DNA from: Candidatus Moraniibacteriota bacterium
GTDB taxonomy: Bacteria > Patescibacteriota > Minisyncoccia > Moranbacterales > UBA1568
Direction: 5' to 3'
DNA: 64,000 bases
NCBI GenBank assembly: GCA_030648835.1
Contig: JAUSGT010000002.1
Location: forward strand, 373,458-437,457
A model generated the notes under the pieces. It was given only the letters and a program-made list of their open reading frames with translations, had not been told where the DNA came from and ran no database searches. Of the stretch, positions 1 to 14,812 are shown in pieces. Position 1 is the first letter of the stretch. Every line of letters starts with the position of its first letter. A program made the translations under genes and the position numbers.

Positions 1-2
1 CC

Positions 3-2018
3 ATCTACGAGCAAGACTTTAAATATAAGAGGCGCTTTTCTCAGAAAGTTGTGATTCCAAAAATATCTAAGGAATACTCATTATTTTGGAGTAGTGTAGT
101 AGGTAATTACCCTAAAGAGTTTAGGAATATTATTTTAGAGGAATATAAGTCAGCATTAGATATAGAGATTCCAACGTTGAAACCAAAAATTCTCAGTAGT
201 CTTTATAAGAATAACAAACTAACCCCTAGAGCAATCTCACGTTTTGAGCTAGATAATTATTCTTCAGCTGGGCTTTTTACTGACACTATTTTTTTTATGG
301 ATGCCACTAAGGGGTTGGACATAATAGATTTTTGGAACTTAAGAGCTACAGGAAGAAAAGTTGTCCCATTTCCTATCCAGTATTCGAAAGATAAAGAAAT
401 TCAGAAAATTGTTCGTGATTTTATAAATATGTCTTATGGTTCTTTAAAGCACAACCCTAAAATATTCAATCACGCATCTTTTATAAAGAGCCGTAGCCTG
501 GAGATGAAACAGATGGAGCAAGCTGTTAAAAGTTTAAAAGTTAGAAAGAAATCTTCTCCAAAAGGTGGGCTATATTTTTCATTGCAATGGTGGTACCCAA
601 GAATGTGGCAAGAAAATTATGTTGATTCTGATAACGTAATACCTGTCGAGGTTTATAATAGTACTCAGAGCATAGATGTAATAGATGAAGATGGAACAAT
701 CTCTTTGCCACCAGTCTTACCTAAGTTTCTTGGGGAAAATCAATCTCTTTTCAGAAGAAAAGTAGGATATGTAAATGAGATAAACATTACCCCTTATAGT
801 TTTGGTTCAAAAATGATTTCTCAAGTATTTCCAATGGGTAAGGAGAACACTTTAAGAGTTATTGATCCTTTGGGGATGCCTGAACAATGGAGAGTAGGGA
901 AAAAGTCTTTAATAAGAGAAGTCTCTTATCAGCATTCCCAGAGGTGGGCTGTTCCTGATTCTCAAGATATATTTTTTTCTTGGCTTAAGGATCTTGGTTT
1001 TAGCGACCTCAAACTTTCTCCCCCTGGTATTTTAGCTAAACAGATTTTTTTTCAGTTAGATGGTTGGCTTAGGATTTTTGCTATTAATGGCATTCTAGAA
1101 CTTTTTGATTCAATGAGTAGGGGGTCTCATAGTGAAGTTGGTATGGCTGTAGGGGCTGTGAAGTCAAAGATCGAACTAATGGGTCGTGATACACAGTTCT
1201 TGGATTTTTTAAATACAAAGAAGATATTTAAAATTGGTGCTAATATTCAGTGCCCGAAGTGTTTCCGTCATTCTTGGTACAGTCTTAGTGATCTAAAAGA
1301 AGAAACAATTTGTTTGAAGTGTCTTAATTCGTTTCCTACAATTTCAAGTATTAATAATAAATGCTGGTATTATAAAACAGCCGGACCTTTCAGTATAGGA
1401 AATCACGCAGAGGGAGCGTATTCTGTCTTGCTATGCTATGATTTTTTCGTAAATGTTATGCATCTGAAAACTAGCGTTGCGTTTAGTTTTAATTTTGAGA
1501 AAAACGGGGAAAAACTTGAAGCTGATTTGGGCTTGTTATGGCTTGATAGTCTTTTTGACAATGTTTCAAATAATACGTTATTCGCAGAGTGTAAGTCTTA
1601 TAACAATTTTGAACAAGGAGATATAGATAGGATGGCTCTTTTAGTTCAAAATTTTCCTGGGGCTGTAATAGTCTTTTCCACACTTAAAAACGAGCTTACT
1701 GTCAACGAGAAAAAGATGATTAAGAAACTTGCAAAAAAATGTAGGAAGTATCATAAAAATAATCTTCCTATAAATCCGCTGCTTGTGCTTACCTCTAATG
1801 AATTACTTTCATTACATCACCCACCGTATTGTTGGAGGGGGAATAGCAAACTTACAGAGAGAGAAAAAAGTAGTATACACTCTTTGTATGATATATGTAA
1901 TGCGAGCCAAAAAATTTATCTTGATCTACCTTCTTGGTATTCTGAATGGGATGAAGAGTGGAAAAAGAAATCTGCTGTGAGAAAAAAGAAGCTGAATGCA
2001 GAATATGTTTGTGAGTAA
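3..2018 (+). CDS. Large hypothetical protein (at least 655 aa, probably 5'-partial). Contains a C4 zinc ribbon (CPKC...CLKC). Lies in the AT-rich island.
   Basis: Frame-3 ORF is open from position 3; the ORF track start at 51 is a GTG. No upstream stop within the window. CxxC-x17-CxxC motif. No recognisable catalytic motif. Confidence 0.45.
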   Translation: MYEQDFKYKRRFSQKVVIPKISKEYSLFWSSVVGNYPKEFRNIILEEYKSALDIEIPTLKPKILSSLYKNNKLTPRAISRFELDNYSSAGLFTDTIFFMDATKGLDIIDFWNLRATGRKVVPFPIQYSKDKEIQKIVRDFINMSYGSLKHNPKIFNHASFIKSRSLEMKQMEQAVKSLKVRKKSSPKGGLYFSLQWWYPRMWQENYVDSDNVIPVEVYNSTQSIDVIDEDGTISLPPVLPKFLGENQSLFRRKVGYVNEINITPYSFGSKMISQVFPMGKENTLRVIDPLGMPEQWRVGKKSLIREVSYQHSQRWAVPDSQDIFFSWLKDLGFSDLKLSPPGILAKQIFFQLDGWLRIFAINGILELFDSMSRGSHSEVGMAVGAVKSKIELMGRDTQFLDFLNTKKIFKIGANIQCPKCFRHSWYSLSDLKEETICLKCLNSFPTISSINNKCWYYKTAGPFSIGNHAEGAYSVLLCYDFFVNVMHLKTSVAFSFNFEKNGEKLEADLGLLWLDSLFDNVSNNTLFAECKSYNNFEQGDIDRMALLVQNFPGAVIVFSTLKNELTVNEKKMIKKLAKKCRKYHKNNLPINPLLVLTSNELLSLHHPPYCWRGNSKLTEREKSSIHSLYDICNASQKIYLDLPSWYSEWDEEWKKKSAVRKKKLNAEYVCE

Positions 2019-2065
2019 AATCGGGACTCTGATAAAGTAGAGGTATTATTTTTTTACTACTGTTT

Positions 2066-2305
2066 ATGAGTAATCAAGAAAGAATTTATAAGTTATGTTT
2101 TTATTGTGAGCACCCCATTATAGAGAATGACAGATTATCAATTGGCTCTATAACTCATGCAGGACTGAAATATAATATCTCAAAGAGACACAGGGAGAAA
2201 ATAGCCTCAATTACTAATAGCGCAGCTTACGAATCGGATCTTATGCACTTACATTGTTATGATTCCGTTGCGTCAGAATTAGGGTTTGGTAATGGTATGT
2301 ATTGA
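2066..2305 (+). CDS. Small Cys-containing hypothetical protein (79 aa)
   Basis: ORF with CFYC motif. AT-rich island context. Confidence 0.3.
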   Translation: MSNQERIYKLCFYCEHPIIENDRLSIGSITHAGLKYNISKRHREKIASITNSAAYESDLMHLHCYDSVASELGFGNGMY

Positions 2306-2423
2306 AGAGGTTGAGACCACTATGTATATCAAAGGGAATTGTAGTAAATGTCACGAATACGGTAGTCTTGAACCAGACGATTCTTTTCGGAATGGTTTTT
2401 GTGAGGATTTTGATTTATAAAGT

Positions 2424-3230
2424 ATGAAAAAACAATTTACCATATTATCAATTATAGCTTTACTATTTTTGGGGAGCCTTGTTTTCGCTATCCCAACAGT
2501 ATCTTCTGCTGAATGTTGGATTTATGGATCGGCTGCAACGGAGGATTACTTAACGGGAGAGTGTAAATGCAGAGCGGGCTATATTATGAGTGATAGACAC
2601 TGCACAAGTGGGGCTACGGCGTGTCTTCTTAAAAATGGCGGATTTTCAACGTATAATGAATCGAAAGGTTCTTGTGAATGCCTTTTCGGCTATACGCTAG
2701 ATAACACTAATCGATGTGTTAAAAAACAAAATAATGTTTACTTTACATTAGAGGAATTAGATACGGGCAACAAGAAGGCGATAATTAGAAGTAACAGTGA
2801 TTTTAATTACTACTTAGTGATTTATAATACTGGTTGTTATGATCGTTCGTTTGAAAGGTATTTAGGAAAACAGATAGTTATAAATTTAGGAACGGATTAC
2901 TATTTGGATACTTTGGACAAAATAGTGTTACAAGATGACAATGAAACATGTGACATAATAAGTAGAGAAAAAGTTGATTCGAGTACAACTTTAAAAGAAG
3001 AAGGTGTGATAATCAAAAGAAGTTATCCATCAACAGTAGTTCCTGAAATTAAAAGAAAACAGGCTGCCATACCTGATACCAACAACAATCCAACAAAAAA
3101 TTCTTCAGTAGAAACTAATACAAATGAAAGTGGATTTAACCCATTTTTTGTTTTAGTTTTTATAATTCTTAGCGGAGGATTTGTCTGGATAATTTGGAAA
3201 TCAATGAAGAATAACATTGAAAGATTATGA
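2424..3230 (+). CDS. Secreted or surface-anchored Cys-rich protein with EGF-like CxC...C repeats (signal peptide plus C-terminal TM anchor)
   Basis: N-terminal signal peptide MKKQFTILSIIALLFLGSLVFAIPTVSSA. Repeated ECKCRAGY...C and SCECLFGY...C modules. C-terminal hydrophobic helix FFVLVFIILSGGFVWIIW. Stop overlaps the next start (ATGA). Confidence 0.6.
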   Translation: MKKQFTILSIIALLFLGSLVFAIPTVSSAECWIYGSAATEDYLTGECKCRAGYIMSDRHCTSGATACLLKNGGFSTYNESKGSCECLFGYTLDNTNRCVKKQNNVYFTLEELDTGNKKAIIRSNSDFNYYLVIYNTGCYDRSFERYLGKQIVINLGTDYYLDTLDKIVLQDDNETCDIISREKVDSSTTLKEEGVIIKRSYPSTVVPEIKRKQAAIPDTNNNPTKNSSVETNTNESGFNPFFVLVFIILSGGFVWIIWKSMKNNIERL

Positions 3231-4444
3231 AAAATAAAATATTCAGTTTAATCAAAGTTACCTCGCTGGTATTTTTAGTAATATTTATTGCACTAGTTAT
3301 TAATTATGCATTCCAATATTTCTGGATTTCTCCACGCTATTGGGGTGGCACAGTTACGCGATCAAACGAGAAAGTGGCAAATACTACGAAAAACTTTATT
3401 AACCTCTATGGATCTGAAAAATTTGCCGCGCTCAATCCTGCTCAAATCAAAAAAGATTATTCTGCGCTCGGCTATAATCTTTTTCTTGAGATAAGACGAA
3501 GTAATCAGGTTGTCGTACGTACTACCTATGCGATTTCTACTATCTTAGATGACCCAAAGACCCATTATACGATTGATTGTGCAATTCCCGGTGTGGGTGA
3601 AAGCTGCTCTATTTTAATTCTAGAGGATGTTAATTCTAAAGCACGTGATTTTAACGCAAATCATACCAATTGGTTGAAAAACTGGTTTATCGCCCCAAAA
3701 GATAATTTCGAAGATAAATATAATAACATTACATGGCCGTTTTTTGTAGCTTTGAGTAGCTCTTCATTGATTGCGACTATTATTCTTGGTTGGTATTTTT
3801 ATGCTAACAAGAAAAAAAGAATATTTCGGGAAAAAGAAGAAGAAAGTCAGAAACTTGAAGAACATATAATAGAGCTTCATCAGATTTTAAGTAATACAAA
3901 AGAGGAAGCTGAAACGGCGAGAGTTGAACTAGACAGGCTTAATTCAGACACAACAACAAACACACAAGAAAATGAGTCTGAAAAGCAGAGACTGCATGAA
4001 AGGGTTAATGAATTAGAAGCCGAGAAGAAAGAGGTAGATGAGGAGGTATTAGTATTTATTGACATTCGGGCAATAGAGAGAGCTATGCGCAATATAATTC
4101 ACAAAAAACTGTCTCAGAGATACCCCCATGGGAATTATTGGGATGTCGCAATTCCAAATGACATAAGAGAACGACTAAGGGATCGTTTAACTTGGCTTAA
4201 GGAGCAAGACAACAGAAAAAGGATTGATGAAACCTATTTCGGCGAGTGCAGAGATATTATAAGGTACAATTATGGTTTATTTGTGGGTATATTTGGGAGA
4301 AAAGATGACGCAATGTCGTATTTCAGAATACTGATTAATACCAGGAATGCACTAGCTCATGACAGAGAAAACAGTGATTTGAGATATATACCTAACGCCA
4401 TAGAATGGGCAAAAAGAAAACTGGAAATAAACAACGATGCATAG
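3227..4444 (+). CDS. Membrane-anchored (2 TM) coiled-coil protein with a C-terminal DUF4145/HEPN-like domain (Rx4H motif RNALAH). Putative RNase-type effector.
   Basis: TM helices near residues 10-35 and about 165-190. Charged coiled-coil (EEESQKLEEH...ELEAEKKEVDEE). C-terminus IDIRAIERAMRNIIHKKL ... FRILINTRNALAHD matches DUF4145/HEPN signatures. Translationally coupled to the flanking genes. Confidence 0.55.
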   Translation: MKNKIFSLIKVTSLVFLVIFIALVINYAFQYFWISPRYWGGTVTRSNEKVANTTKNFINLYGSEKFAALNPAQIKKDYSALGYNLFLEIRRSNQVVVRTTYAISTILDDPKTHYTIDCAIPGVGESCSILILEDVNSKARDFNANHTNWLKNWFIAPKDNFEDKYNNITWPFFVALSSSSLIATIILGWYFYANKKKRIFREKEEESQKLEEHIIELHQILSNTKEEAETARVELDRLNSDTTTNTQENESEKQRLHERVNELEAEKKEVDEEVLVFIDIRAIERAMRNIIHKKLSQRYPHGNYWDVAIPNDIRERLRDRLTWLKEQDNRKRIDETYFGECRDIIRYNYGLFVGIFGRKDDAMSYFRILINTRNALAHDRENSDLRYIPNAIEWAKRKLEINNDA

Positions 4445-5909
4445 GGAGATACTAACTTTTATGGAAAGTACACTTTTTATTACGCCGAGTAGACCACTTG
4501 ATGAAATAAGCCGGCTTATTGGCAATGGGCTAAAAAAGAACGGCCTTATCGAAAAAGGAAATCCGCGAAGAGCGAATACTCGTTTTAAATTATCTGAGAA
4601 TGATTACTTTGTAGGGTTTTCTTGGTGTTACGAAACTATTCCTGATAGTGTAGTAATCCTTCTGGAAATCTCAAAATACTATGAAGAAGAGGAGAGAAAG
4701 AAGGATACCCCATCTAAGTTAACCAAGCCTGAAATAATCAACTATGCCAAAAGCTTTAAGAAATATATTGAATCTGAACAACTGCCAATATCAGAGGTGA
4801 AAATAAAACAATTTAAATTATCGAAGTCTTTGTCTGTAGAATATGAACTGGGTAATAAAATTGTTTCGCCATCAAAGAGGGGGGCATTGCATAACCCATT
4901 TGAACTTAGAGCGTTGCCGGAATCAATTCGTGTATATTGGCCTGCGGGGTCTCTTAACGAAAGTGATCGGGCGTGTAGAATGCTTGCCGATAGTTTGATA
5001 AGATTCGGCGTTAGGGGGGCAAGAATGTTCCCAGAACTTTATAATAATCAAACGCTACCTTTACCGGATAATGATTCTTTTGAGTGTATAATTATTATTC
5101 CTAATATTGAGGATGAATTAGCAAAGCCACTTATTGTAGAATTAAAGAAACGACCCAGGGGCATACATATATTTGATTTTGATGATAATGGCAATCAATA
5201 CAAATTTGACAATTTGGCCGCTGGTATTTTATATAATAGTGGCAGTGAACTTTGGAGAGTTCATGGTTTGGATCAAAATAACTCCATATATGTTGGTATT
5301 GACTTAGGTCACGACCCCAAACTAAGAAAGTCTAAAATATGTATGACTTTTATTGACAAGAATGGTCGGGAGCTTTCTGAGCATAGGTATATTGCAGAGG
5401 ACTTACCTTTGAATGAAAAACAACAACTGATAGGTATTCTTACTGATAAGTTAGAAAAAATTCAAAAAGAAAATGGATTTGAAAACGTTATTATTCACAA
5501 AGATGGCCGAATTCTGGAAAATCACGATACGCTTTATTACACACTAAAACAAAAATTTGGAAGCGTCTCGCTTATTGAAGTAGTAAAGTCAAATTCAGCC
5601 TTTATTCTAGATCCAGAATCTAAAATGGGTGATATTTTTGATTTTGGAAATTTTATACTTTTACAAACGTTACCATTTAACCACCTTGGGAAATGTACTG
5701 AGCCTATAAAAATTAAGATACTGAAATCCGATTTAGATAGGATGTTTCTTATTGACAATGTATTTAAACTTTCGAAGGCTTTTTGCGGAGATTCATTATA
5801 CGCAGACAAGAAATTACCAATTACAACACATATTGCTGATCGATTCTCATCATTCCAAACAGGTAAGACGTTACAGTCGTTTAATATTGCGAAAAAGTGG
5901 ATAAAATAA
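4437..5909 (+). CDS. Short prokaryotic Argonaute (MID-PIWI, about 480-490 aa). PIWI motifs GIDLGHD, IIHKDGR, IEVVKS and SLYADKK are present.
   Basis: Motif-level match to Argonaute PIWI. GIDLGHD matches the GxDVxH beta-strand that carries the first catalytic Asp. VIIHKDGR matches IHRDGR. SLIEVVKSNSAFIL matches the VEVVKSGN segment. FILLQTLPF...GKCTEP matches FYLxSQ..GTxRP. SLYADKKL matches YYADxxA, which carries the last catalytic residue. A preceding Rossmann-like MID segment (CIIIIPN ... NQYKFDNLAAGILYNSGSELW) is present. An alternative start at 4461 has an AGGGAG RBS. Confidence 0.65.
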   Translation: MHREILTFMESTLFITPSRPLDEISRLIGNGLKKNGLIEKGNPRRANTRFKLSENDYFVGFSWCYETIPDSVVILLEISKYYEEEERKKDTPSKLTKPEIINYAKSFKKYIESEQLPISEVKIKQFKLSKSLSVEYELGNKIVSPSKRGALHNPFELRALPESIRVYWPAGSLNESDRACRMLADSLIRFGVRGARMFPELYNNQTLPLPDNDSFECIIIIPNIEDELAKPLIVELKKRPRGIHIFDFDDNGNQYKFDNLAAGILYNSGSELWRVHGLDQNNSIYVGIDLGHDPKLRKSKICMTFIDKNGRELSEHRYIAEDLPLNEKQQLIGILTDKLEKIQKENGFENVIIHKDGRILENHDTLYYTLKQKFGSVSLIEVVKSNSAFILDPESKMGDIFDFGNFILLQTLPFNHLGKCTEPIKIKILKSDLDRMFLIDNVFKLSKAFCGDSLYADKKLPITTHIADRFSSFQTGKTLQSFNIAKKWIK

Positions 5910-5956
5910 AAATATGAAAAATAAACTTCTCTATTTTGCGGTAAACTTTTAAATAA

Positions 5957-6463
5957 GTGAGACAGAAAAACATGGAAACAAAAGATCCTATTCAAAAAGA
6001 TTCAGGAAAAAAGTGGCCGAAAACACTGCTTAAATATTTGTTTGCCATAATCATCATTTTCGTATTGCTGTTTAGTTTGGTCGGTTCTTACGAAGATCTA
6101 CTTGATGTGTCCTTTTTGGTCTTCGTTCTTGCGGTGATTACCGTTATAGCACTTATAGCCGGGGGTTTGCTGACAGGGTATGAACATGTTAAGCCGATAG
6201 CAGATAAATTTGAGGACGAGAATGTATGGCAGTATATCAGAATGGCGATCATCAGATTATTGATTGGTGGGTTCATAATTTATTGGATGATTGGTGGCGA
6301 GGGATTTCTTAGTCTTGACAGCCTCGAAAATATCGTTCATAATCTTGGGAAATTTTCTCTCTGGATTTTTGCAATATATTTTGTTCTGGCCGGGCTAAAG
6401 AGTCTCTATTGGGTTATTCGAGAAGTAATAAAAAATTTAACGAGTGATGGAGACGAGGATTGA
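5957..6463 (+). CDS. Small 4-TM membrane protein, possibly part of the pAgo module
   Basis: Four hydrophobic helices. Acidic C-terminus. Begins 48 bp downstream of the pAgo gene. Confidence 0.5.
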   Translation: MRQKNMETKDPIQKDSGKKWPKTLLKYLFAIIIIFVLLFSLVGSYEDLLDVSFLVFVLAVITVIALIAGGLLTGYEHVKPIADKFEDENVWQYIRMAIIRLLIGGFIIYWMIGGEGFLSLDSLENIVHNLGKFSLWIFAIYFVLAGLKSLYWVIREVIKNLTSDGDED

Positions 6464-6478
6464 TTTCAAGAGATAAAG

Positions 6479-7420
6479 ATGAACCAGGATAATTTCGTTA
6501 AAATTGAAGGGTGTTTCAGACAAGCTAGAATCACTAGCGAGCTTGCGGATTCTTCGGTTGCAAAATATCGTGATTCAATTAAGAAATTCTTTTCTGTCAT
6601 TGGCAACAAAGATTTTGAATTACTGGTAATCGTTGACTTTGAGAACTTGATTCTAAAAATGCGGGATAATGGTGCGGGTAATTCCAGGATTGCCAACGTA
6701 ATTTCTGCTGTTAAGTGGCTTACTAAAAAACTTCAAGATGGGGGAAAAATACCAAAAACGCTTGATTTAGAGAAGGTAAAAAAACCGAAAATTGAAAGGA
6801 AGGAAGTTGAATATTTGAACGATCAAGAAATAAAAAGGCTCATTGACTGTATTTTAGACGATCTTTCAAAAGGGGAATTCATAAGGAAGGTGAGGATAAT
6901 GGCGCTTGTAGTGTTTTTACTAGAAAGCGGTGCAAGAATTGGCGAAGCCCTTTCAATCAAAATTGAAAAAATTGACTGGGATAACAATGAAATCCCCATT
7001 GTTGGAAAAGGGAAAAAACCGAGAACGTTGTTTTTCAGGGATCGTTCTAAATATTGGTTTCAAAAGTATTTATCCATAAGAAAAAGTGATAGCGAGTTTT
7101 TGTTTGTTACTCTCAGTGGCTTGGCTAAATGGTCACAAACAGACGTAGGGAGATCTTTTAGACGGTATAGGAACTTGTCCGGAATAAAGAAAAAGCTTGT
7201 TTTGCATACACTGAGGCATACTACTGCTACCCAACTATCATTTAAGGGCGCTCAATTTAACGAAATACAAGCCCTTTTGGGTCACGCTCGACTAGAAACC
7301 ACAGTAAAGTATTATATCGGCGCGGCAGGAAAACAGAGGGTCAAGAAAATGATGCAGGATAAATACTATGATTTCATTCCTGAATCAGTGTTGAAAGTTA
7401 ATAAATCAGTGAAGGCATAG
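6479..7420 (+). CDS. Tyrosine-type site-specific recombinase/integrase (XerC/XerD-like)
   Basis: SGARIGEAL (Arg box I). HTLRHTTATQL (HxxR). LLGHARLETTVKYY (catalytic Tyr region). Confidence 0.8.
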   Translation: MNQDNFVKIEGCFRQARITSELADSSVAKYRDSIKKFFSVIGNKDFELLVIVDFENLILKMRDNGAGNSRIANVISAVKWLTKKLQDGGKIPKTLDLEKVKKPKIERKEVEYLNDQEIKRLIDCILDDLSKGEFIRKVRIMALVVFLLESGARIGEALSIKIEKIDWDNNEIPIVGKGKKPRTLFFRDRSKYWFQKYLSIRKSDSEFLFVTLSGLAKWSQTDVGRSFRRYRNLSGIKKKLVLHTLRHTTATQLSFKGAQFNEIQALLGHARLETTVKYYIGAAGKQRVKKMMQDKYYDFIPESVLKVNKSVKA

Positions 7421-7682
7421 TAAATGTCGTCAAAACGTTATTCTTTGGTTTAGCCTCCAAGCTGCCAAATCTGGTCGGGTAGAATACGACAGCGTCCACC
7501 ATAATCTCCAAAGGCTCATCAAAGAGGCTCTTAGGCCTACTAATTGGCGTCTGATGAGCGATGGAGTCACTTATCGCCTTGGGTTTCCTCCAAGGGCGCT
7601 TAAGAGGTGTAGAAGGTGAAGAAGCTCTCCGAAAGCTCGTAGAATTAGAGCAAAAAAAGTTAACTCCTAAAAAGAGGAATTT

Positions 7683-8462
7683 ATGAACGAAAATGCCAAG
7701 GGAAAGATCGAATTTCTTATTCAAGATAACCTACGCGCCATTAAATCGAAACATCCAAAGATCGCGTTGAAGGCAGATCCCAATATTTTAGAACAAGACA
7801 AAAAGAAATCTGCGGAAGAGATCGCGCTTACTCTGCCTTCTCTTCAGAAGCATCTTGATGAATTGTTACCATTTATCCAAAATCTTCGAAAGCATATTCA
7901 GGATATTACTGAACAGACGCATATTTGTGCTGCTTATCTGTTACTTGCTCGTGCTACGCAAGATTGGAAATCGTTACTTTCCTTGGCAGAGAAGGGAGAT
8001 ATCGGCTGTTGGTCATTCATACGTCTAATTAAGGAATCTGTAGCACTCGCAGATCTTTTCGCTTTGGAATCTAGAGGAGATAGTCGTAAGTATATTGAAA
8101 AATGGTTTTCCGGACAGATTATTGGTCATGCAGCCTACAGAGAGGTTCAGACGGAATTCATGCGTCAAGATCCAAGCAACGCAGGTATTGATATAGAAGC
8201 CATGGCCACGGAGCTTTATCAAATGGAGTCTTTGGTAATTCACGCTTCATATAGCACGATGCTAGAGAGCGTAAGTCCATTCACGGAAGATTTTGACTAT
8301 ACAGGCCGTACCCAATATTCTCGTACTAGTAAGGCTTTGGGATATGCTCATGGCACTATGGTAAATATGAATATTGTTCTGAAATCAGTCTATCTTTTCC
8401 TAATCAAAGATAGCAATGCATACGAGGATCTTGATAAGATACTGATTAAATACTCGAGATAG
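7683..8462 (+). CDS. Hypothetical protein (259 aa), first cassette-like unit after the recombinase
   Basis: ORF with an AAGAGGAAT RBS. No recognisable domain. Confidence 0.45.
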   Translation: MNENAKGKIEFLIQDNLRAIKSKHPKIALKADPNILEQDKKKSAEEIALTLPSLQKHLDELLPFIQNLRKHIQDITEQTHICAAYLLLARATQDWKSLLSLAEKGDIGCWSFIRLIKESVALADLFALESRGDSRKYIEKWFSGQIIGHAAYREVQTEFMRQDPSNAGIDIEAMATELYQMESLVIHASYSTMLESVSPFTEDFDYTGRTQYSRTSKALGYAHGTMVNMNIVLKSVYLFLIKDSNAYEDLDKILIKYSR

Positions 8463-8475
8463 ATAGAGACACCAA

Positions 8476-8639
8476 GCTGTCTCATATGGTAAAATAAGAC
8501 AGGGTCTGTCCTGTGTCTCATTTGTCTCGTTTTACCCCCAAAACCGCGACCCGAGAGCCTCAATCCACTCGTCGGCCAAGACCTCCAAGAAATCCCTCAA
8601 CGGCTTGATTTCTCAAAGTTCTAGACCGATGACGCCCGC
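8476..8639. repeat. About 164 bp GC-rich intergenic repeat, copy 1. Contains the hairpin GGTAAAATaAGACA...TGTCTCGTTTTACC.
   Basis: Near-identical to 9891..10054. Its 3' half matches 13986..14080. Confidence 0.85.
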
Positions 8640-8861
8640 AGTGAACGTTAGTGAACGGAGGAGAGGAGGAAGCCAACTGCTTGGCTTCCGTGATGGATGA
8701 GAAAGGCGGAGCGATGTTTCGCGAGTACGCGAAACCGTGAGCCAGGGTCGTGGAAATTTATGAGCGTCGGCGAATAAATTATCCCTGACCGAATCCCTGC
8801 CTCTCTGTAGGCAGGTTTCCCTCTTCGCCAAAATTGAAAATCGGAATCGGAAGCTGAAAAT

Positions 8862-9842
8862 ATGAGTAAGGAAAAGAAATTCGGAATTATCGCTGGAGCA
8901 GTTCTCATTGCTATTGCGGGTCTGTTTATAATGAACCGTGTATTTTTCAACGCACCTCAATCTCAGGAAGAAAAGACAGTTTTTATTATGAATCGTAGTC
9001 AAACCGAAACACAAACATTGGATAAATTAAAAACTCAAGGATTGATTAGAAATAAATGGGCATTTAAGTTGGTTCTATTTCTCAAGCATAACAAAATTGA
9101 GCCTGGCGGTTATACTGTGTCAAAAAGTATGAGCGCTTGGCAAATCGCCAACAAACTTATTTCTGCTCCTGATATGAAATGGGTGGTAATCCCCGAGGGA
9201 CTGCGAAAGGAGCAGATTGGGGAAAAACTGGCGGAGACATTCGATTGGAGTGACGAAGAACTTGGTAAATGGAATACGGAATACACTAAAATGAGGATAG
9301 ATTATATCGAGGGGACGTATTTCCCTGATACCTATCTTATTCCGGTAAATGAAGGCGGATTCAAAATGGCTGAACGAATGACGAGGCGTTTTGATGAAAA
9401 ATTTGCTCCGTATATCAGCCAGTTTGCCCAACAAAATATCCTGTGGACTACTGGGCTCAAATTAGCTTCAATTATCCAGAGAGAAGCCGGGGGGAAAGAC
9501 GATATGCCCCTTATCGCTGGAGTCATGTGGAACAGGCTCGATCAAAATATGAATTTAGAAATAGACGCGACTGTCCAGTATGCACGAGGGAAAGCCGAGG
9601 CTGGCTGGTGGGCACCCGTTACATCTGGAGGTATACAAAGCATCGATTCTCCATACAATACTTACAAAAACAAGGGACTACCTCCCTTTCCTATTTCTAA
9701 TCCAGGGATTGATGCGATTGAAGCGGTCTTACATCCAGTTGAAACTGATTGTCTATACTACCTTCACGACAGCGATCGGCAAATCCACTGCGCTAAGACG
9801 TTTGAAGAACACAAGGAAAATATAGAGAAGTACTTGCGGTAA
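8862..9842 (+). CDS. mltG: Endolytic murein transglycosylase MltG (YceG-like)
   Basis: N-terminal TM. YceG-like motifs (GGYTV, EGLRKEQI, SIIQREAG, GVMWNRL, LEIDATVQY). Confidence 0.75.
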   Translation: MSKEKKFGIIAGAVLIAIAGLFIMNRVFFNAPQSQEEKTVFIMNRSQTETQTLDKLKTQGLIRNKWAFKLVLFLKHNKIEPGGYTVSKSMSAWQIANKLISAPDMKWVVIPEGLRKEQIGEKLAETFDWSDEELGKWNTEYTKMRIDYIEGTYFPDTYLIPVNEGGFKMAERMTRRFDEKFAPYISQFAQQNILWTTGLKLASIIQREAGGKDDMPLIAGVMWNRLDQNMNLEIDATVQYARGKAEAGWWAPVTSGGIQSIDSPYNTYKNKGLPPFPISNPGIDAIEAVLHPVETDCLYYLHDSDRQIHCAKTFEEHKENIEKYLR

Positions 9843-9890
9843 TCACATGAAAATGTACCTCTACGGAAACATCCAAAAGGGAGACATCCC

Positions 9891-10054
9891 GCTGTCCCAT
9901 ATGGTAAAATGAGACAAGGTCTGTCCTGTGTCTCATTTGTCTCGTTTTACCCCCAAAACCGCGACCCGAGAGCCTCAATCCACTCGTCGGCCAAGACCTC
10001 CAAGAAATCCCTCAACGGCTTGATTTCTCAAAGTTCTAGACCGATGACGCCCGC
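9891..10054. repeat. About 164 bp GC-rich intergenic repeat, copy 2
   Basis: Near-identical to 8476..8639 (a few substitutions). Confidence 0.85.
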
Positions 10055-10301
10055 TAAGATTATTTTTCACCCTTCTGGGTGTAAAATAGGCTTTGTTGAT
10101 TGGAAGGATGAGAAGGGCGTGAGTCGGATGCGAACAAGCGAGCATCCTGTGTGTAGCGCCCAGGCTCCGAGTCGGAGCGAGGAGGAATCCCTCCTTCTCC
10201 GCCCTCGCTCGCCGAAGCGAACCTTCGGCGTGACGAAGTCCGCTGTAGATACGTGAAAGTTTTCGAGGTTCCGGTTGATGATCTTTTGAAGAAATAAAAC
10301 T

Positions 10302-11288
10302 ATGAAAAAATTAATTGTACATAAAGTAAATATTTCTCATCAGCGTCTTGTTGAACTATCTAAACTAGCCGATCAGGCAAAGCCTTTTTACGATTGGGTT
10401 GAAAAGGTAGCAAAAAAAGTTACTGGATCGCACAGAAGTTTGAACGAGATAATTTTTCAGTCATCAAAAAAAGAAATTCATACCATAATTAAAAGTTGTT
10501 ATTCCAATGGAGCGGAAACAAAACCTTTTTTGTTTGATGGCGTTGGTAGAGTTTATCCTCACTTTAAGGCTTGTTTTTACTTTTTTGCTTGGATAGTTCG
10601 AGACGCTCCACAACAAAGACTTTCCCCCTTAATTAGTCGTATGCAAAAAGCCGACAAGGTTTCTAAAATTACGGCGGAAACAGATGCGCTTGTAAAATTA
10701 ATTTTTGAATACAAATCTGTAGTAAAAAGTTTTGAATGGCAAGCTGTGCGAGAAGTGATAATTGATAGGTTGGAGGGGTCTAGGCGAAGTATTCGCGGAC
10801 ATGCTTTAGAGGCGAGCGCGCGAACAAGCTTGGTTACCGCTATTCAAAATTATTATTCAATTCACGGAGATTACGGGAAATTTAAGAAAGTTGAAATTGC
10901 TGATAAGCAGATAAAAATAGGTAGGCACACTGTAGACGTTTCCGCTTTGCTCTATCCTAAAAATGAATCAGTTCCTATTCGACTGCTTATCCCAATAAAG
11001 ACAAGGGAGACCGAAGGCGGTGGTCATTCTCATATCTTCACTAGAGATGTAATTTCCGCGATTACTGATATTAAAGCCGAAAAGAAAAAAGATCATATTA
11101 TAGTTGTGATTGTTGCCGAAAATTGGTCTCCAAGAGAAATCCAGACAATAGATGATGCGATTGATTTGATTTTTCATTTCAATATGAGTCCGAATGCATT
11201 TGAGGGCTTTGACGAGAGCGCTCAAGTTACATTGAATCAGTATATTGAAAAAATATTTAGCGAATATGAAAAGCAAGCACGAAAATAA
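10302..11288 (+). CDS. Hypothetical protein, putative restriction endonuclease partner of the downstream methyltransferase
   Basis: Overlaps the MTase gene by 44 nt in the same operon. No nuclease motif could be confirmed by eye. Confidence 0.35.
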   Translation: MKKLIVHKVNISHQRLVELSKLADQAKPFYDWVEKVAKKVTGSHRSLNEIIFQSSKKEIHTIIKSCYSNGAETKPFLFDGVGRVYPHFKACFYFFAWIVRDAPQQRLSPLISRMQKADKVSKITAETDALVKLIFEYKSVVKSFEWQAVREVIIDRLEGSRRSIRGHALEASARTSLVTAIQNYYSIHGDYGKFKKVEIADKQIKIGRHTVDVSALLYPKNESVPIRLLIPIKTRETEGGGHSHIFTRDVISAITDIKAEKKKDHIIVVIVAENWSPREIQTIDDAIDLIFHFNMSPNAFEGFDESAQVTLNQYIEKIFSEYEKQARK

Positions 11289-12150
11289 AATACTACTTGG
11301 TGATGTACGGGAAGTGATAAAAATCTTTCCCGATCTGCACTTTCAAGCTATTATCACTAGCCCGCCATATTTTGGTCATAGAAAATATTCAGAAAAAAGT
11401 TCTAGTGGCGAGGTGGGTCGGGAATCAAACCCAGAACAGTATATTGAGAATATTAGGCAAATTTTCAACGGGCTTAGGCCAAAATTAAAAGACAATGGAT
11501 TATTGTGGTTAAACCTTGGCGATACCTACAGAGAGAAAACCCTACTTGGTATTCCGTGGCGGACTGCTCTGGCTTTGCAATCTGACGGCTGGATACTCCG
11601 AAGTGATATTATTTGGCGAAAAACAAATGCTATGCCGTCGTCCATCAAAGATCGACCTACTACTGATCATGAGTATGTATTTATGTTTTCCAAAACTCCA
11701 GAATATCTTTATTACGCGGACGCAATTAGAGAGCCACATGTTACGTTTTCTGATAAATCCAAAATGAAGGGTGGAAGAAATCATTTTGGGAAACGAGACG
11801 GTACACCGGAAAACGGAAAGAATGGCGGCAACTCAAATCTTCACAATGGAAGGTGGGATCAAGCTTTTCACCCAAATGGAAGGAATAAAAGAACTGTTTG
11901 GGATATTTCTCTAGGCAAGTTTAGAGATACGCATTTTGCGGTTTATCCTGAAAAGCTTGTAGAAACTTGTATTCTTGCATCTACAAAAGAGGGCGATTTG
12001 GTTTTTGACCCATTTATGGGTTCTGGTACAACAGCATTGGTGGCGTGTAAGCTAGGGAGAAATTTTACTGGTGTTGAGTTAGTCGAAAAATATAAAGACA
12101 TGGCGGAAAAAAGAGTCTCGCCTTATCTTAAACAAGCAAAATTAGTATGA
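11245..12150 (+). CDS. DNA methyltransferase, beta-class N4-cytosine/N6-adenine (motif IV SPPY before motif I FMGSGTT)
   Basis: IITSPPYFG (D/S-PPY). DPFMGSGTTALVA (FxGxG SAM-binding motif) near the C-terminus. Confidence 0.85.
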   Translation: MKKYLANMKSKHENKILLGDVREVIKIFPDLHFQAIITSPPYFGHRKYSEKSSSGEVGRESNPEQYIENIRQIFNGLRPKLKDNGLLWLNLGDTYREKTLLGIPWRTALALQSDGWILRSDIIWRKTNAMPSSIKDRPTTDHEYVFMFSKTPEYLYYADAIREPHVTFSDKSKMKGGRNHFGKRDGTPENGKNGGNSNLHNGRWDQAFHPNGRNKRTVWDISLGKFRDTHFAVYPEKLVETCILASTKEGDLVFDPFMGSGTTALVACKLGRNFTGVELVEKYKDMAEKRVSPYLKQAKLV

Positions 12151-13208
12151 ATGAAAGACAACAGATAATCAAAGAAATTGAGGATTTGCGAGGTTCGCGC
12201 GTTATAACCTACATAACGAGCGATAGACCCGGAATAATCTCAATGATTGATCCAATGGATTTACGAGAGATTTTTGATCATCTGAAAGATATCCCCAAAG
12301 ATACAAAAATTGATTTATACATTTACAGTCGCGGTGGAAATTCCGTAACTGCGTGGGCTCTCGTAAATCTTATTCGCGAACACACTAAAGATTTTAATGT
12401 TCTTGTACCTTATCGCGCACACAGTTGTGCTACTGCTATTGCAATTGGGTCAAATGAAATAGTTATGGGACGAATGGGAGAGTTAGGACCAATAGACCCA
12501 ACACTTTCTGCAATAGTTGATAATAAAAAAGTTGATGTCTCAACCGAAGATTTATCTAGCTACATTGCTTTTTTGAAAGAAAAGTTTGGTATCAATCGTC
12601 AAAAGCATACGATTCAAGCATTTAGCCAACTTGCCGAAAACGTAAAACCTCTTTTGCTTGGTAGAGCGTACCGCTCGTATCTCAAAGCAACTGATGACGC
12701 GATAAAACTTTTGCGACTACATTTGAGTGACGAAAGGAAAATCAAAAGCATTGCTGAACATCTTGTTGAGAAACTTTATGCCCACGATCATATTATCTCT
12801 CGTAGGGAAGCTAAAGAAAAAATTGGCCTGAACGTTCTTTGCGCTGAAGGAGATTTGGAAAAGAAAATGTGGGAGTTATACCTCAAATACGAGGATATGC
12901 TAAAATTAAAAGAACCATACAAGGATGAACCAACGACAGGAAACGATCCAAGAATTTTGCCGGTTACTGTCGTTGAAAGTATAACTATGACTAGCAAAAA
13001 GAACGTTCGACAATTCATTAAGGAAGTCAGCTTGCCACAGCAAAATATGGCGGCGATGCCTGTTATTGTTGGTGATAAGCCCGCGCTCATGTTCCCAAAC
13101 GGACAAGCTATTCAGATTGTAACAGAGGGGCAAACTGTTGTTTTAGATCAGAAGTTTTTTGCTAAAACGGAAACTATAGTTTGGGAACAAGAGGTAGTAA
13201 CGGAATAA
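12147..13208 (+). CDS. ClpP/SppA-superfamily (S14/S49-like) serine peptidase with a C-terminal extension
   Basis: IDLYIYSRGGNSVTAWALVNLIRE ... YRAHSCATAIAIGSNEIVMG aligns with the ClpP core (DIYLYINSPGG ... GQAASMG). ATGA overlap with the MTase stop. Confidence 0.5.
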   Translation: MNERQQIIKEIEDLRGSRVITYITSDRPGIISMIDPMDLREIFDHLKDIPKDTKIDLYIYSRGGNSVTAWALVNLIREHTKDFNVLVPYRAHSCATAIAIGSNEIVMGRMGELGPIDPTLSAIVDNKKVDVSTEDLSSYIAFLKEKFGINRQKHTIQAFSQLAENVKPLLLGRAYRSYLKATDDAIKLLRLHLSDERKIKSIAEHLVEKLYAHDHIISRREAKEKIGLNVLCAEGDLEKKMWELYLKYEDMLKLKEPYKDEPTTGNDPRILPVTVVESITMTSKKNVRQFIKEVSLPQQNMAAMPVIVGDKPALMFPNGQAIQIVTEGQTVVLDQKFFAKTETIVWEQEVVTE

Positions 13209-13598
13209 TGCGCGTAGCGATTTCCCTGCGGTCTTGCCGCAGGAACCACTAAGGAAAGTTTGAAAACCTTGGTTTTCAAGTTAGACTATAGTGGCAAAGC
13301 CTCGGGTCATACCCTGTGGTCTTGGCATAGGGTTGTTGATTTTTGTTGCTTGAAATTCGCCAAAAGAAAACAGCGGAGCAAATGGAAAATTCCTCCCCAA
13401 ACCCCTCCTCCTCCGCTTGCGACATCCGAATTCAAAAACAAATGAGCGTACGAGGCAGTCTCGAGCCACCACGCGCTCCGTGCGTGCGATTAGTCGGCAT
13501 CATGGTTGCTTTCAAAATACATTCGAACTTTGTATAATACACACCGCATCAAACTCATAGTATCGAGTAGACTTGAGCTTTAATAATAAGAAAACAAT

Positions 13599-13985
13599 AT
13601 GGGAGAGTTTATTGCATTTTTAAGTTTTCTAGGTACTAACATACAGGCACTAAGTTTTTTAGTTGTGGTGGTTGGAGGAGTTTTTGCTTGGGTAAAATTT
13701 AGAGAGTACGTAAAAGATAAGAGATTTACAACTTACCATAATTTGATAGATCAGCTTGTAGATGATAAAAGCCATCCAAGTGGAAAGTTGATGTTGGATA
13801 GACAAATTGCAATTGTTTTTGAACTTAGAAGTTTTCCTAAATATTATAAAGTTACTCAGAGAATTCTAGAGGGACTTAAGAATGAAGAAACCTGGAAGAC
13901 TGGAAATCCAAGACTTGTTGAAGAAGTCGATCTAACTTTAGAATATATAAACTCAAATATATTCTGCCGATTGTTTAAGAGATAA
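13599..13985 (+). CDS. Small membrane protein (128 aa), hypothetical
   Basis: N-terminal hydrophobic segment. A consensus TATAAT box about 60 bp upstream. Confidence 0.4.
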   Translation: MGEFIAFLSFLGTNIQALSFLVVVVGGVFAWVKFREYVKDKRFTTYHNLIDQLVDDKSHPSGKLMLDRQIAIVFELRSFPKYYKVTQRILEGLKNEETWKTGNPRLVEEVDLTLEYINSNIFCRLFKR

Positions 13986-14080
13986 TGCGACCCGACCTTT
14001 CCAATCCGTTCGTCGGCCAAGACCCCTAAGAAATCCCTCAACGGCTTGATTTCTCAAAGTTCTAGACCGATGACGCCTGC
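13986..14080. repeat. Partial (3' half) copy of the 164 bp repeat, copy 3
   Basis: Matches the 3' roughly 95 bp of the copies at 8476 and 9891 with a few substitutions. Confidence 0.8.
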
Positions 14081-14109
14081 ACCGAGTATTAAGTATCGGA
14101 TATACCCAT

Positions 14110-14721: not shown

Positions 14722-14725
14722 TAGT

Positions 14726-14768: not shown

Positions 14769-14812
14769 TAGTGCTCAAATCCGAATAACTTGCAGTAAAC
14801 ATTTTTACCGTT

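What the first reader, a model, noticed from the sequence alone, without database searches (positions are those of the whole stretch)
4437..5909. Short pAgo whose PIWI catalytic tetrad positions appear intact
Short pAgos described so far are catalytically dead and work as sensors. Here the motifs that carry the DEDX residues retain acidic residues: GIDLGHD (first Asp), IIHKDGR (RDG Asp) and SLYADKK (YYAD-type last residue). That pattern suggests a nuclease-competent short PIWI protein.
Basis: partly seen in the sequence, partly recalled or inferred. Interest (0 to 1): 0.75.

Follow-up and report, generated by a model that had tools for sequence, protein, structure and literature searches.

The report
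Compact PAZ-less Argonaute with intact DEDD
The gene encodes an unusually small (482 aa) Argonaute from a Candidatus Moranbacteria genome; it has lost the PAZ domain but keeps all four catalytic residues, so it is probably a working guide-directed nuclease, but it belongs with the cutting "long-A" Argonautes, not with the catalytically dead "short" ones.

Summary
The ORF is real. Its start is more likely ATG 4461 (482 aa) than 4437. Its C-terminal half is a genuine PIWI domain (PADLOC pAgo profiles 2e-20; family profile against CpAgo in the PDB 6e-27).

SLYADKK is not the fourth catalytic position. The fourth residue is D468 in THIADRF. The glutamate finger is present: E327 in LNEK, the same motif as E482 of MpAgo. 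The DEDD tetrad is therefore complete, and it is kept in every relative that covers those positions.

The protein is not a member of the short pAgo clade. Its family profile scores 66-98 bits against long-A nucleases (CpAgo, KmAgo, CbAgo, MpAgo, AaAgo) and about 24 bits against SPARTA short pAgos. A confident AlphaFold model (pLDDT 91) aligns about 440 residues with long Agos, including a remnant of the N-lobe. It has no PAZ domain and a reduced MID.

PAZ-less "truncated long-A" pAgos with predicted tetrads were already listed in 2018, and I found none that has been characterised.

The gene sits 16 nt downstream of a membrane-anchored coiled-coil protein with a HEPN-like domain, in a low-GC region next to an integrase gene. 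The family is very rare; its placed members come from a Moranbacteria MAG and UGA=Gly hosts.

Verdict: a new variant of a known kind, of moderate interest.

The parts
4461..5909 (+). Coding sequence of the compact Argonaute: 482 aa from ATG 4461. The mechanical ORF starts at ATG 4437 and gives 490 aa. Residue numbers in this report use the 490-aa ORF; subtract 8 for the 482-aa protein.
   Evidence: ORF list. A 100% match to NCBI MAG Candidatus Moranbacteria Q7S04_02980, 482 aa. Homologue N-termini begin MEST. RBS and start context.
4444..4449 (+). GGGAGA Shine-Dalgarno-like sequence, 11 nt upstream of ATG 4461. It lies in the 16-nt gap after the partner's stop codon (TAG 4442-4444).
   Evidence: Sequence read directly.
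4464..4916 (+). N-lobe remnant, aa 10-160. It is a beta-alpha-beta4-alpha domain (aa 10-112) followed by a 48-residue linker. There is no room for a PAZ domain.
4917..5186 (+). Reduced MID-like Rossmann domain, aa 161-250. The canonical Y/H/R-K loop and the Gln of the 5'-phosphate pocket are absent.
5187..5888 (+). PIWI (RNase H-fold) domain, aa 251-484.
5301..5303 (+). Codon GAC for D289 (GIDLGHD), first catalytic Asp.
   Evidence: Aligns with MpAgo D446. D in every one of the 74 relatives that covers the column. Lies in strand 283-293.
5415..5417 (+). Codon GAA for E327 (LNEK), the glutamate finger.
   Evidence: Aligns with MpAgo LNEK E482 (PMC5435312). Invariant in the family. Lies in the loop between strand 318-324 and helix 332-346.
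5502..5504 (+). Codon GAT for D356 (HKDGR), third catalytic residue.
   Evidence: Aligns with MpAgo D516 and the CpAgo Asp, both replaced by Ala in the dead mutants 5UX0 and 9JH8 (PMC5435312). Lies at the end of strand 350-356.
5838..5840 (+). Codon GAT for D468 (THIADRF), the real fourth catalytic residue.
   Evidence: Aligns with the D of CpAgo GYADKI and with N624 of MpAgo HIANK. D or N in all but one of the relatives that cover it (H in P0055). Lies in helix 462-471.
5805..5807 (+). It is not a catalytic column.
   Evidence: The column is P/S/H/K/A in other pAgos and Q/W/R in family members P0006, P0008 and P0010. Lies in the loop between helices 435-445 and 462-471.
3227..4444 (+). Upstream partner gene, 405 aa. 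It has two predicted TM segments (aa 3-35 and 168-191), a coiled-coil region (about aa 195-275) and a C-terminal HEPN-like domain (about aa 273-405).
   Evidence: ORF list. Hydropathy. PADLOC PDC-M34B 1.1e-10. HEPN_Swt1 7e-5 and HEPN_Apea 3e-3 on the isolated C-terminal domain, both below the gathering score. A roughly 400-aa gene sits in the same position in L001, L002/L003 and L005/L006.
4343..4360 (+). R373-N-A-L-A-H378, an Rx4H motif of HEPN type in the partner.
   Evidence: Sequence read directly. Catalytic significance is inferred from the HEPN family definition.
6479..7420 (+). Tyrosine recombinase (integrase) gene in the low-GC region.
   Evidence: Pfam Phage_integrase 3.1e-30. GC is 0.35 at 1-6000, 0.39 at 6001-8000, 0.39-0.44 at 8001-16000 and 0.44-0.50 beyond 16 kb.

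Best explanation
Window 4461-5909 encodes a 482-aa compact Argonaute. It descends from the catalytically active long-A type; the closest solved relatives are MpAgo and CpAgo.

It has lost the PAZ domain and shortened its linkers and MID. It keeps an N-lobe remnant, a full PIWI RNase H fold and a complete DEDD tetrad (D289, E327, D356, D468 in ORF numbering).

The most likely mechanism (inferred, not shown) has three steps:
1. The protein binds a short nucleic-acid guide in the MID/PIWI channel.
2. It pairs the guide with a complementary invader strand.
3. The glutamate finger E327 swings in to complete a two-metal site with D289, D356 and D468, and the target is cut.

The gene is co-transcribed with a variable upstream partner. 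In this window the partner is a two-pass membrane protein with a cytoplasmic coiled coil and a HEPN-like Rx4H domain. I infer that it acts as an accessory effector, probably an RNase, or as a membrane tether that supplements direct slicing.

The pair lies in a low-GC region next to an integrase gene in a Candidatus Moranbacteria (CPR) genome. It is therefore most likely a horizontally acquired defence module.
For: **Shown**
- PIWI homology.
- Residue-by-residue mapping of D/E/D/D onto MpAgo D446/E482/D516/N624 and onto the CpAgo active site. This includes the positions that depositors mutated to kill cleavage (PMC5435312).
- The tetrad is kept in every family member that covers the positions, down to 25% identity, including hosts that read UGA as Gly.
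- AF2 model with pLDDT 91.4 and pTM 0.92. D289 is in a strand, E327 in the strand-to-helix loop, D356 at a strand end and D468 in a helix.
- The family profile scores 66-98 bits against long-A nucleases and 23-24 bits against SPARTA short pAgos.
- In an NJ tree the family is monophyletic and sits next to DEDN long pAgos whose best PDB hit is MpAgo.
- A roughly 400-aa gene lies immediately upstream in all four independent loci that include upstream DNA.
- Partner features.
- Low GC and the integrase.

**Inferred**
- Guide binding, slicing, the role of the partner and the defence function.
Against: - There is no biochemical evidence. An intact tetrad is necessary for slicing but not sufficient.
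- The MID lacks the canonical Y/H/R-K and Q residues of the 5'-phosphate pocket. In this clade the last Lys of the motif is Asn (N267). How a guide is anchored, or whether one is, is unknown.
- With no PAZ domain there is no 3'-end pocket.
- The HEPN call is below Pfam's gathering score (23.5 against 27.5 bits), and the partner has no detectable homologues.
- Partners in related loci are not homologous to this one, so any partner role is not conserved in detail.
- The placement near long-A rests on profile scores and a crude NJ tree. It does not rest on a reference phylogeny that includes long-B and short sequences.
Confidence: 0.6

Rival explanations
1. Sensor-effector system. The Argonaute mainly senses invader nucleic acid and then activates the membrane-anchored HEPN partner, giving abortive infection by RNA degradation or membrane damage. 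This is how short pAgo, SiAgo-Aga and long-B systems work. The retained tetrad would serve only guide generation or would be redundant.
For: - The gene pairing is tight and an upstream partner is present in every related locus.
- The partner's architecture (TM, alpha-helical coiled coil, effector domain) resembles the alpha-helical-plus-TM/HEPN/TIR/PD-(D/E)xK effectors described next to long-B pAgos (PMC10954474).
- The partner hits PADLOC candidate defence protein PDC-M34B at 1.1e-10.
- Catalytically active pAgos that use accessory effectors are reported (title and abstract of PMC11442185).
Against: - All described sensor-type pAgos have lost DEDX (PMC6299218). Here DEDD is invariant across a family that diverges to 25% identity, which argues that catalysis itself is under selection.
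- Partners are not homologous between loci.
Confidence: 0.25
2. Guide-independent nuclease. With a degenerate MID pocket and no PAZ domain, the protein acts as a structure- or duplex-specific RNase H/EndoV-like nuclease and not as a programmable Argonaute.
For: - The canonical 5'-end-binding residues are missing.
Against: - The overall bilobed Ago architecture is kept, with about 440 residues superposable on guide-bound long Agos.
- MpAgo also lacks the canonical pocket, yet it uses 5'-OH guides (PMC6299218; PMC5435312).
Confidence: 0.1
3. A true member of the short pAgo clade that has kept or regained the catalytic tetrad.
For: - Its length (482-490 aa) is typical of short pAgos, and it lacks PAZ.
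Against: - The family profile scores about 24 bits against SPARTA pAgos and 66-98 bits against long-A nucleases.
- The nearest 74 relatives keep both catalytic Asp positions, with one exception at the third, and are mostly DEDD or DEDN.
- The protein has an extra N-lobe remnant.
- It lacks the HK/RK MID motif.
- No APAZ-type partner was detected.
Confidence: 0.03
4. A decaying or mis-called gene with no function.
For: - There is no Pfam hit, and NCBI annotates it as 'hypothetical protein'.
Against: - Full-length intact ORFs occur in at least six independent contigs, plus a 54%-identical paralogue in the same genome. Catalytic and core residues are invariant.
- The fold prediction is confident.
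Confidence: 0.02

Closest known systems
MpAgo, the Marinitoga piezophila Argonaute (PDB 5I4A/5UX0), and MpAgo-like long-A pAgos
   Same: - It is the best Foldseek hit (4e-22).
- The GIDL(G/S)HD and LNEK motifs around the first Asp and the glutamate finger are identical or nearly so, and the HIA(D/N) motif matches at the fourth position.
- Both lack the canonical 5'-phosphate MID pocket (PMC6299218).
- The nearest long relatives of the query family have MpAgo as their best PDB hit.
   Different: - MpAgo is 639 aa, with N, L1, a small PAZ (154-208), L2 and a 144-aa MID. The query is 482 aa, with no PAZ and a MID of about 90 aa.
- The fourth residue is Asn in MpAgo and Asp here.
- MpAgo-like genes are described as CRISPR-linked (PADLOC description). 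No CRISPR-like repeats occur in this window.
- Sequence similarity is confined to PIWI.
CpAgo, CbAgo and KmAgo, mesophilic DNA-guided long-A nucleases (PDB 9JH7, 6QZK, 8XHS)
   Same: - They share the DEDD tetrad, with the fourth Asp in a YAD/IAD helix.
   Different: - They are 737-751 aa with a full N-PAZ lobe and a canonical YK MID pocket. The loop carrying Y..K is absent from the query family.
'Truncated long-A' pAgos catalogued by Ryazansky et al. 2018, for example WP_037994439.1 from Thermoactinomyces sp. Gus2-1 (454 aa)
   Same: - They have long-A affinity by MID-PIWI, no PAZ domain, a length of about 450-490 aa and a tetrad predicted to be intact (Table S1).
   Different: - That example keeps a YK MID motif, and the query family does not.
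- No Moranbacteria, Parcubacteria or 'candidate division' entries occur in that census.
- I did not compare the sequences directly.
- I found no characterised member in the held literature.
PAZ-less long-B pAgos and the AfAgo/AfAgo-N heterodimer, with their alpha-helical effector proteins (PMC10954474)
   Same: - They share the N-L1-L2-MID-PIWI architecture without PAZ.
- A neighbouring gene encodes an alpha-helical region fused to a TM, HEPN, TIR or PD-(D/E)xK module.
   Different: - Long-B proteins are catalytically inactive. Their effector gene lies downstream, whereas here the partner lies upstream.
- AfAgo and RsAgo were not hit by the family profile.
Short pAgo systems (SPARTA, SPARSA, SPARDA) and SiAgo-Aga1-Aga2
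   Same: - The protein length is similar, and each is in a two-gene operon with an effector-like partner. SiAgo uses a membrane effector.
   Different: - These pAgos lack DEDX, carry HK/RK MID motifs and pair with APAZ (N-L1-L2) proteins (PMC6299218).
- The query has DEDD, has its own N-lobe remnant, has no APAZ partner and has only weak profile similarity (about 24 bits).

Membership tests
Argonaute/PIWI superfamily | PIWI domain with an RNase H fold | tested here: met
   [not shown]
Argonaute/PIWI superfamily | MID (Rossmann-like) domain preceding PIWI | tested here: met
   [not shown]
Catalytically competent (slicer) Argonautes | Complete DEDX tetrad at the four canonical positions, including the glutamate finger | tested here: met
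   D289/E327/D356/D468 align with MpAgo D446/E482/D516/N624 and with the CpAgo active site. They lie on the expected secondary-structure elements.
Catalytically competent (slicer) Argonautes | Guide-dependent cleavage activity | not testable with these tools
   Needs biochemistry.
Short pAgo clade (Makarova 2009; Ryazansky 2018) | Placement in the short clade by MID-PIWI sequence | tested here: not met
   The family profile scores 23-24 bits against SPARTA pAgos and 66-98 bits against long-A proteins. It gives no hit to SPARSA, SPARDA or SiAgo. All 74 nearest relatives keep the first catalytic Asp where they cover it and all but one keep the third, as long-A nucleases do. No formal reference phylogeny was run.
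Short pAgo clade (Makarova 2009; Ryazansky 2018) | Loss of the DEDX tetrad (PIWI*) | tested here: not met
   DEDD is intact.
Short pAgo clade (Makarova 2009; Ryazansky 2018) | MID-PIWI-only architecture with a canonical HK/RK 5'-phosphate motif | tested here: not met
   About 100 extra N-terminal residues superpose on the N-lobe of long Agos. The Y/H/R-K loop is absent.
Short pAgo clade (Makarova 2009; Ryazansky 2018) | Partner or fusion carrying APAZ plus an effector (Sir2, TIR, Mrr/DREN, HNH) | tested here: inconclusive
   The partner shows no Sir2, TIR, nuclease or APAZ hit in Pfam, PADLOC or NCBIfam. It has TM segments, a coiled coil and a HEPN-like domain. APAZ is hard to detect by sequence, and no structure was predicted for the partner.
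Long-A pAgo | Closest MID-PIWI similarity to long-A nucleases, with a DEDX tetrad | tested here: met
Long-A pAgo | Full N-L1-PAZ-L2 lobe | tested here: not met
   Only about 160 residues precede the MID, against 284 in MpAgo. The model has one small domain and a 48-residue linker, with no PAZ-like module. The protein therefore fits the 'truncated long-A' category.
MpAgo-like (MID-OH, CRISPR-associated) subgroup | 5'-OH-specific MID pocket residues | not tested
   No MID-level alignment to MpAgo could be obtained. Sequence similarity is limited to PIWI.
MpAgo-like (MID-OH, CRISPR-associated) subgroup | Location in a CRISPR-cas locus | tested here: not met
   No spaced direct repeats occur in the 64-kb window. 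The immediate neighbours gave no cas-family hits.
HEPN superfamily (the partner, 3227-4444) | Alpha-helical HEPN domain with an Rx4-6H motif | tested here: inconclusive
   The Rx4H motif R373-NALA-H378 is present. HEPN_Swt1 gives 7e-5 but 23.5 bits, below the 27.5 gathering score, and HEPN_Apea gives 3e-3. PADLOC PDC-M34B gives 1.1e-10. There is no PDB sequence hit and no structure model.

The most novel reading that the evidence does not exclude
This is a naturally minimised Argonaute from ultra-small CPR bacteria that is a true guide-programmed slicer at only 482 aa, with no PAZ domain and no canonical 5'-end pocket. That would make it one of the smallest active Argonaute nucleases known. 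It would also work together with a membrane-tethered HEPN RNase as a two-layer defence, combining direct cleavage with abortive infection, and the partner slot would be swappable between lineages.
Probability: 0.25. Interest if true: 0.75.

Novelty: new variant of a known kind. Interest (0 to 1): 0.55.

Why it matters
If the protein is active, it would show that PAZ, most of the linkers and the canonical MID pocket are dispensable for Argonaute slicing in nature. It would also offer a programmable nuclease scaffold about 35% smaller than CbAgo or KmAgo.

It would add pAgo systems to the defence repertoire of CPR bacteria. I found no paper in the held library that links Argonautes with the CPR. 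The 2018 pAgo census has no entries named Moranbacteria, Parcubacteria or 'candidate division'.

The pairing of a pAgo that appears catalytically intact with a membrane-anchored HEPN-like protein blurs the usual division between active pAgos that cut and inactive pAgos that signal to an effector.

It does not overturn the rule that short-clade pAgos are catalytically dead.

Tried and rejected
- **Pfam.** A scan of the pAgo gave no hit. Homology had to come from PADLOC, NCBIfam and the PDB.
- **First AlphaFold run.** With the 5-sequence alignment it failed (pLDDT 49.5). It was replaced by a 69-sequence alignment.
- **Word-index homologue searches.** They returned only 5 close relatives, twice. 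A search with the partner returned only the partner itself.
- **Genome and metagenome scans.** The first genome scan confirmed no relative and the later scans found only distant PIWI relatives.
- **Paralogue P0004.** Its locus could not be retrieved, and it is not in the window.
- **hhalign of the family against long pAgos.** It aligned only PIWI, so the N-lobe assignment could not be confirmed by sequence.
- **afdb50 fold library.** It was unavailable.
- **BFVD viral fold search.** It gave only generic RNase H-fold hits.
- **PDB sequence search with the HEPN-like domain.** Nothing meaningful.
- **Shared context genes among related loci.** None apart from the position of the partner. Partners from different sub-lineages are not detectably homologous.
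- **DUF2325-like domain idea.** I suspected by eye that the C-terminal domains of the L001, L002 and L005 partners were DUF2325-like. Pfam did not support this, so I dropped it.
- **SLYADKK as the fourth catalytic motif.** Rejected.
- **P0027 (470 aa) and P0028 (465 aa) as further compact active pAgos.** Not accepted, because P0027's cluster contains a 618-aa member, so these may be truncated ORFs.
Full report
**1. What is in the sequence**

An ORF runs from 4437 to 5909 on the + strand and encodes 490 aa.

The start is more likely ATG 4461, which gives 482 aa, for three reasons.
- The identical NCBI protein begins there. It is the MAG Candidatus Moranbacteria protein Q7S04_02980, on a 635,596-bp contig.
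- Homologues begin with MEST.
- A GGGAGA Shine-Dalgarno sequence lies at 4444-4449, directly after the upstream gene's TAG stop at 4442-4444.

Residue numbers below follow the 490-aa ORF. Subtract 8 for the 482-aa protein.

**2. Is it a PIWI protein?**

Pfam finds nothing. Other libraries do.

| Search | Best result |
|---|---|
| PADLOC pAgo/PIWI profiles, aa ~245-476 | E down to 2.4e-20 |
| NCBIfam Thermotogae Argonaute model | 1.1e-12 |
| phmmer against PDB chains | CpAgo 2.7e-10, MpAgo 1.5e-9 |
| Profile of the close family against the PDB | CpAgo 6e-27 |
| Profile-profile comparison with long pAgos | probability 99.9, E 1.5e-34, PIWI only |

This is far beyond chance.

**3. The catalytic tetrad**

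In the HMMER alignments to MpAgo (chain numbering is native +3) and CpAgo, the positions map as follows.

| Query residue | Motif | Aligns with | Place in the model |
|---|---|---|---|
| D289 | GIDLGHD | MpAgo D446 | strand 283-293 |
| E327 | LNEK | MpAgo LNEK, E482 | loop between strand 318-324 and helix 332-346 |
| D356 | HKDGR | MpAgo D516; CpAgo Asp | end of strand 350-356 |
| D468 | THIADRF | D of CpAgo GYADKI; MpAgo N624 | helix 462-471 |

- E482 is the residue named as the glutamate finger in PMC5435312. That paper places the finger in a flexible loop between a beta-strand and alpha-helix 1 of PIWI, which matches the position of E327.
- D516 is the residue mutated to Ala to block cleavage in 5UX0. 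The two deposited MpAgo sequences differ at exactly this column, and so do the two CpAgo sequences 9JH7 and 9JH8.

D457 lies in a loop, and its column is P/S/H/K/A in other pAgos. It even varies within the close family: Q in P0006, W in P0008 and R in P0010.

The observation of an intact tetrad is therefore right in substance (DEDD).

**4. Conservation**

An exhaustive HMMER scan of 1.84 billion representative proteins found only 74 relatives. The close family consists of the query, P0002-P0005 and the C-terminal fragment P0007, plus P0006 (464 aa), P0008 (467 aa), P0009 (506 aa) and the fragment P0010.
- Every member that spans the positions has D-E-D-D. Identity to the query falls as low as 25%.
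- P0008 and P0009 are stored with Trp where the family has Gly. Re-translating their loci with table 25 restores GIDLGH, HRDG and HKDG. Their hosts therefore read UGA as Gly.
- P0004 is a second copy, 54% identical, in the same Moranbacteria genome. It lies outside this window.
- Scans of public genome and metagenome collections found no further close members.

The family is very rare. Its placed members come from a Candidatus Moranbacteria MAG and from hosts that read UGA as Gly.

**5. Which kind of Argonaute?**

The family profile scores as follows against solved structures.

| Target | Type | Bits |
|---|---|---|
| CpAgo | long-A nuclease | 97.7 |
| KmAgo | long-A nuclease | 79.2 |
| CbAgo | long-A nuclease | 78.5 |
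| MpAgo | long-A nuclease | 70.3 |
| AaAgo | long-A | 66.6 |
| TtAgo | long-A nuclease | 26 |
| SPARTA pAgos | short | 23.6-23.9 |

SPARSA, SPARDA, SiAgo, AfAgo and RsAgo were not hit.

The other 60-odd relatives are mostly 600-880-aa proteins. All keep the first Asp where they cover it, and all but one keep the third. Most have DEDD or DEDN tetrads, and the rest vary at the glutamate position or carry one D-to-E or D-to-H change. A neighbour-joining tree of the PIWI region makes the compact family monophyletic. It sits next to DEDN long pAgos, and the nearest of these, P0011, has MpAgo as its best PDB hit.

The second AlphaFold run, with a 69-sequence alignment, gave pLDDT 91.4 and pTM 0.92. 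Its layout is:
- aa 10-112: a beta-alpha-beta4-alpha domain
- aa 113-160: a 48-residue linker
- aa 163-247: a small Rossmann-like MID
- aa 251-484: PIWI

The canonical 5'-phosphate pocket is degenerate.
- The CpAgo loop that carries Y..K is an insertion relative to the family profile.
- The last Lys of the motif is N267 in the query's sub-clade.

The protein is best described as a PAZ-less, compacted derivative of the long-A nucleases, that is, 'truncated long-A'. It is not a member of the short clade.

**6. Genomic context**

A 405-aa ORF (3227-4444) ends 16 nt before ATG 4461. Its features are:
- two hydrophobic segments at aa 3-35 and 168-191
- a charged region of heptad-like character at about aa 195-275
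- a C-terminal domain that hits PADLOC candidate PDC-M34B at 1.1e-10
- when that domain is scanned alone, HEPN_Swt1 at 7e-5 and HEPN_Apea at 3e-3, both below the gathering score
- an Rx4H motif, R373-NALA-H378

Every related locus that includes upstream DNA also has a gene of about 400 aa abutting the pAgo gene.

| Locus | Partner position | Features |
|---|---|---|
| L001 | 7-1215 | about four TM segments, a coiled coil and a different C-terminal domain; 57% identical to the L002 partner |
| L002 / L003 | 8824-9999 / 8469-9644 | as for L001 |
| L005 / L006 | 3163-4419 / 445-1701 | 418 aa, no clear TM segment |

The partners from different sub-lineages show no detectable homology with each other. 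No other neighbouring gene is shared. The conserved feature is a partner slot, and its content varies.

The first 6 kb of the window has GC 0.35 and the next 2 kb 0.39. GC is 0.39-0.44 from 8 to 16 kb and 0.44-0.50 beyond. A tyrosine recombinase gene lies at 6479-7420 (3e-30). This is consistent with a horizontally acquired island. No CRISPR-like repeats occur in the window.

**7. Mechanism**

Shown:
- the fold
- the complete and conserved DEDD tetrad at canonical positions
- the affinity to long-A nucleases
- the loss of PAZ
- the operon arrangement with a partner

Inferred: the protein loads a short guide, pairs it with a complementary invader strand, and cuts once E327 has inserted into the D289/D356/D468 metal site. 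The membrane-anchored HEPN-like partner would add a second activity (an RNase, or abortive infection) or localise the complex.

The main rival is a sensor-effector mode like that of the short and long-B systems. The invariance of DEDD across a family that diverges to 25% identity argues that catalysis itself is under selection. [quoted passage not shown]

Caveats:
- The MID pocket is degenerate and there is no PAZ, so the chemistry and anchoring of the guide are unknown.
- I could not inspect the model's coordinates.
- The HEPN call is below threshold.

**8. Comparison with what is known, and novelty**

Ryazansky et al. 2018 state that every pAgo of the short clade lacks DEDX and that predicted active tetrads occur only in long-A. 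Their Table S1 lists 19 'longA_trun' proteins without PAZ. At least one of them, WP_037994439.1 from Thermoactinomyces sp. Gus2-1 (454 aa), has a 'putative' tetrad. The category is therefore known.

I found no paper in the held library that characterises such a protein or that links Argonautes with the CPR. That census has no entries named Moranbacteria, Parcubacteria or 'candidate division'.

PAZ-less single-chain architectures, and effectors built from an alpha-helical region plus a TM or HEPN module, are described for inactive long-B pAgos (PMC10954474). Active pAgos with accessory effectors are also reported (PMC11442185, listed).

The finding is a new variant of a known kind. It is a rare family of compact pAgos, probably active, with a non-canonical MID and a swappable partner that is often membrane-anchored.

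**9. Verdict**

| Item | Result |
|---|---|
| Observation | partly confirmed |
| Interpretation | partly supported: nuclease competence is plausible, 'short pAgo' is wrong |
| Interest | 0.55 |

Noticed in passing
window 3227-4444 (+): The upstream partner gene encodes a two-TM protein with a coiled coil and a HEPN-like domain carrying R373-x4-H378. Its N-terminal half (aa 5-246) also matches phrog_857, a phage protein family of unknown function, at 1.6e-7. No homologue was found in the 5.8-billion-protein word-index search.
   Followed up: partly
L004 190-1710; L005 4413-5816; L006 1695-3098: The relatives P0008 and P0009 come from contigs that need genetic code 25 (UGA=Gly). The stored proteins carry Trp where Gly is conserved, for example HKDWKF and IWIDSS. 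Re-translation restores the PIWI motifs. The family therefore spans a Candidatus Moranbacteria MAG and hosts that read UGA as Gly.
   Followed up: yes
outside the window (protein P0004, NCBI Q7S04_01470): A second copy of this compact pAgo (505 aa, 54% identity, DEDD intact) exists elsewhere on the same 635-kb Moranbacteria contig. Its neighbourhood could not be retrieved.
   Followed up: partly
window 2424-3230 (+): A 268-aa protein with N- and C-terminal hydrophobic segments and a Cys-rich middle that gives weak EGF-like hits. Its stop overlaps the partner's start by 4 nt, so it may belong to the same operon. It is not found in related loci.
   Followed up: partly
window 51-2018 (+): A 655-aa ORF with no family hit in Pfam, PADLOC, NCBIfam or PHROGs. 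By eye it has a CxxC...CxxC pair and a D...ECK stretch that resembles a PD-(D/E)xK nuclease. This was not tested.
   Followed up: no
window 1-8500: A low-GC stretch (0.35-0.39, against about 0.46 for the rest of the window) that includes a tyrosine integrase gene (6479-7420) and a 4-TM ORF (5957-6463). It is probably an integrated island whose left end lies beyond the window. No tRNA or Rfam RNA was found at its right end.
   Followed up: partly
window 10302-12150 (+): An unannotated 328-aa ORF overlaps an N6/N4 DNA methyltransferase gene (Pfam 7e-54). This is a likely restriction-modification pair, about 4 kb downstream of the pAgo gene and still in DNA of below-average GC.
   Followed up: no
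L002 5396-8610; L003 5041-8255; L005 9007-13688: Related pAgo loci carry other defence-type genes nearby: an N6_N4 methyltransferase and DUF6119 in L002 and L003, and GmrSD and a UvrD-type helicase in L005. This suggests that the family sits in defence islands.
   Followed up: no
[not shown]
   Followed up: no
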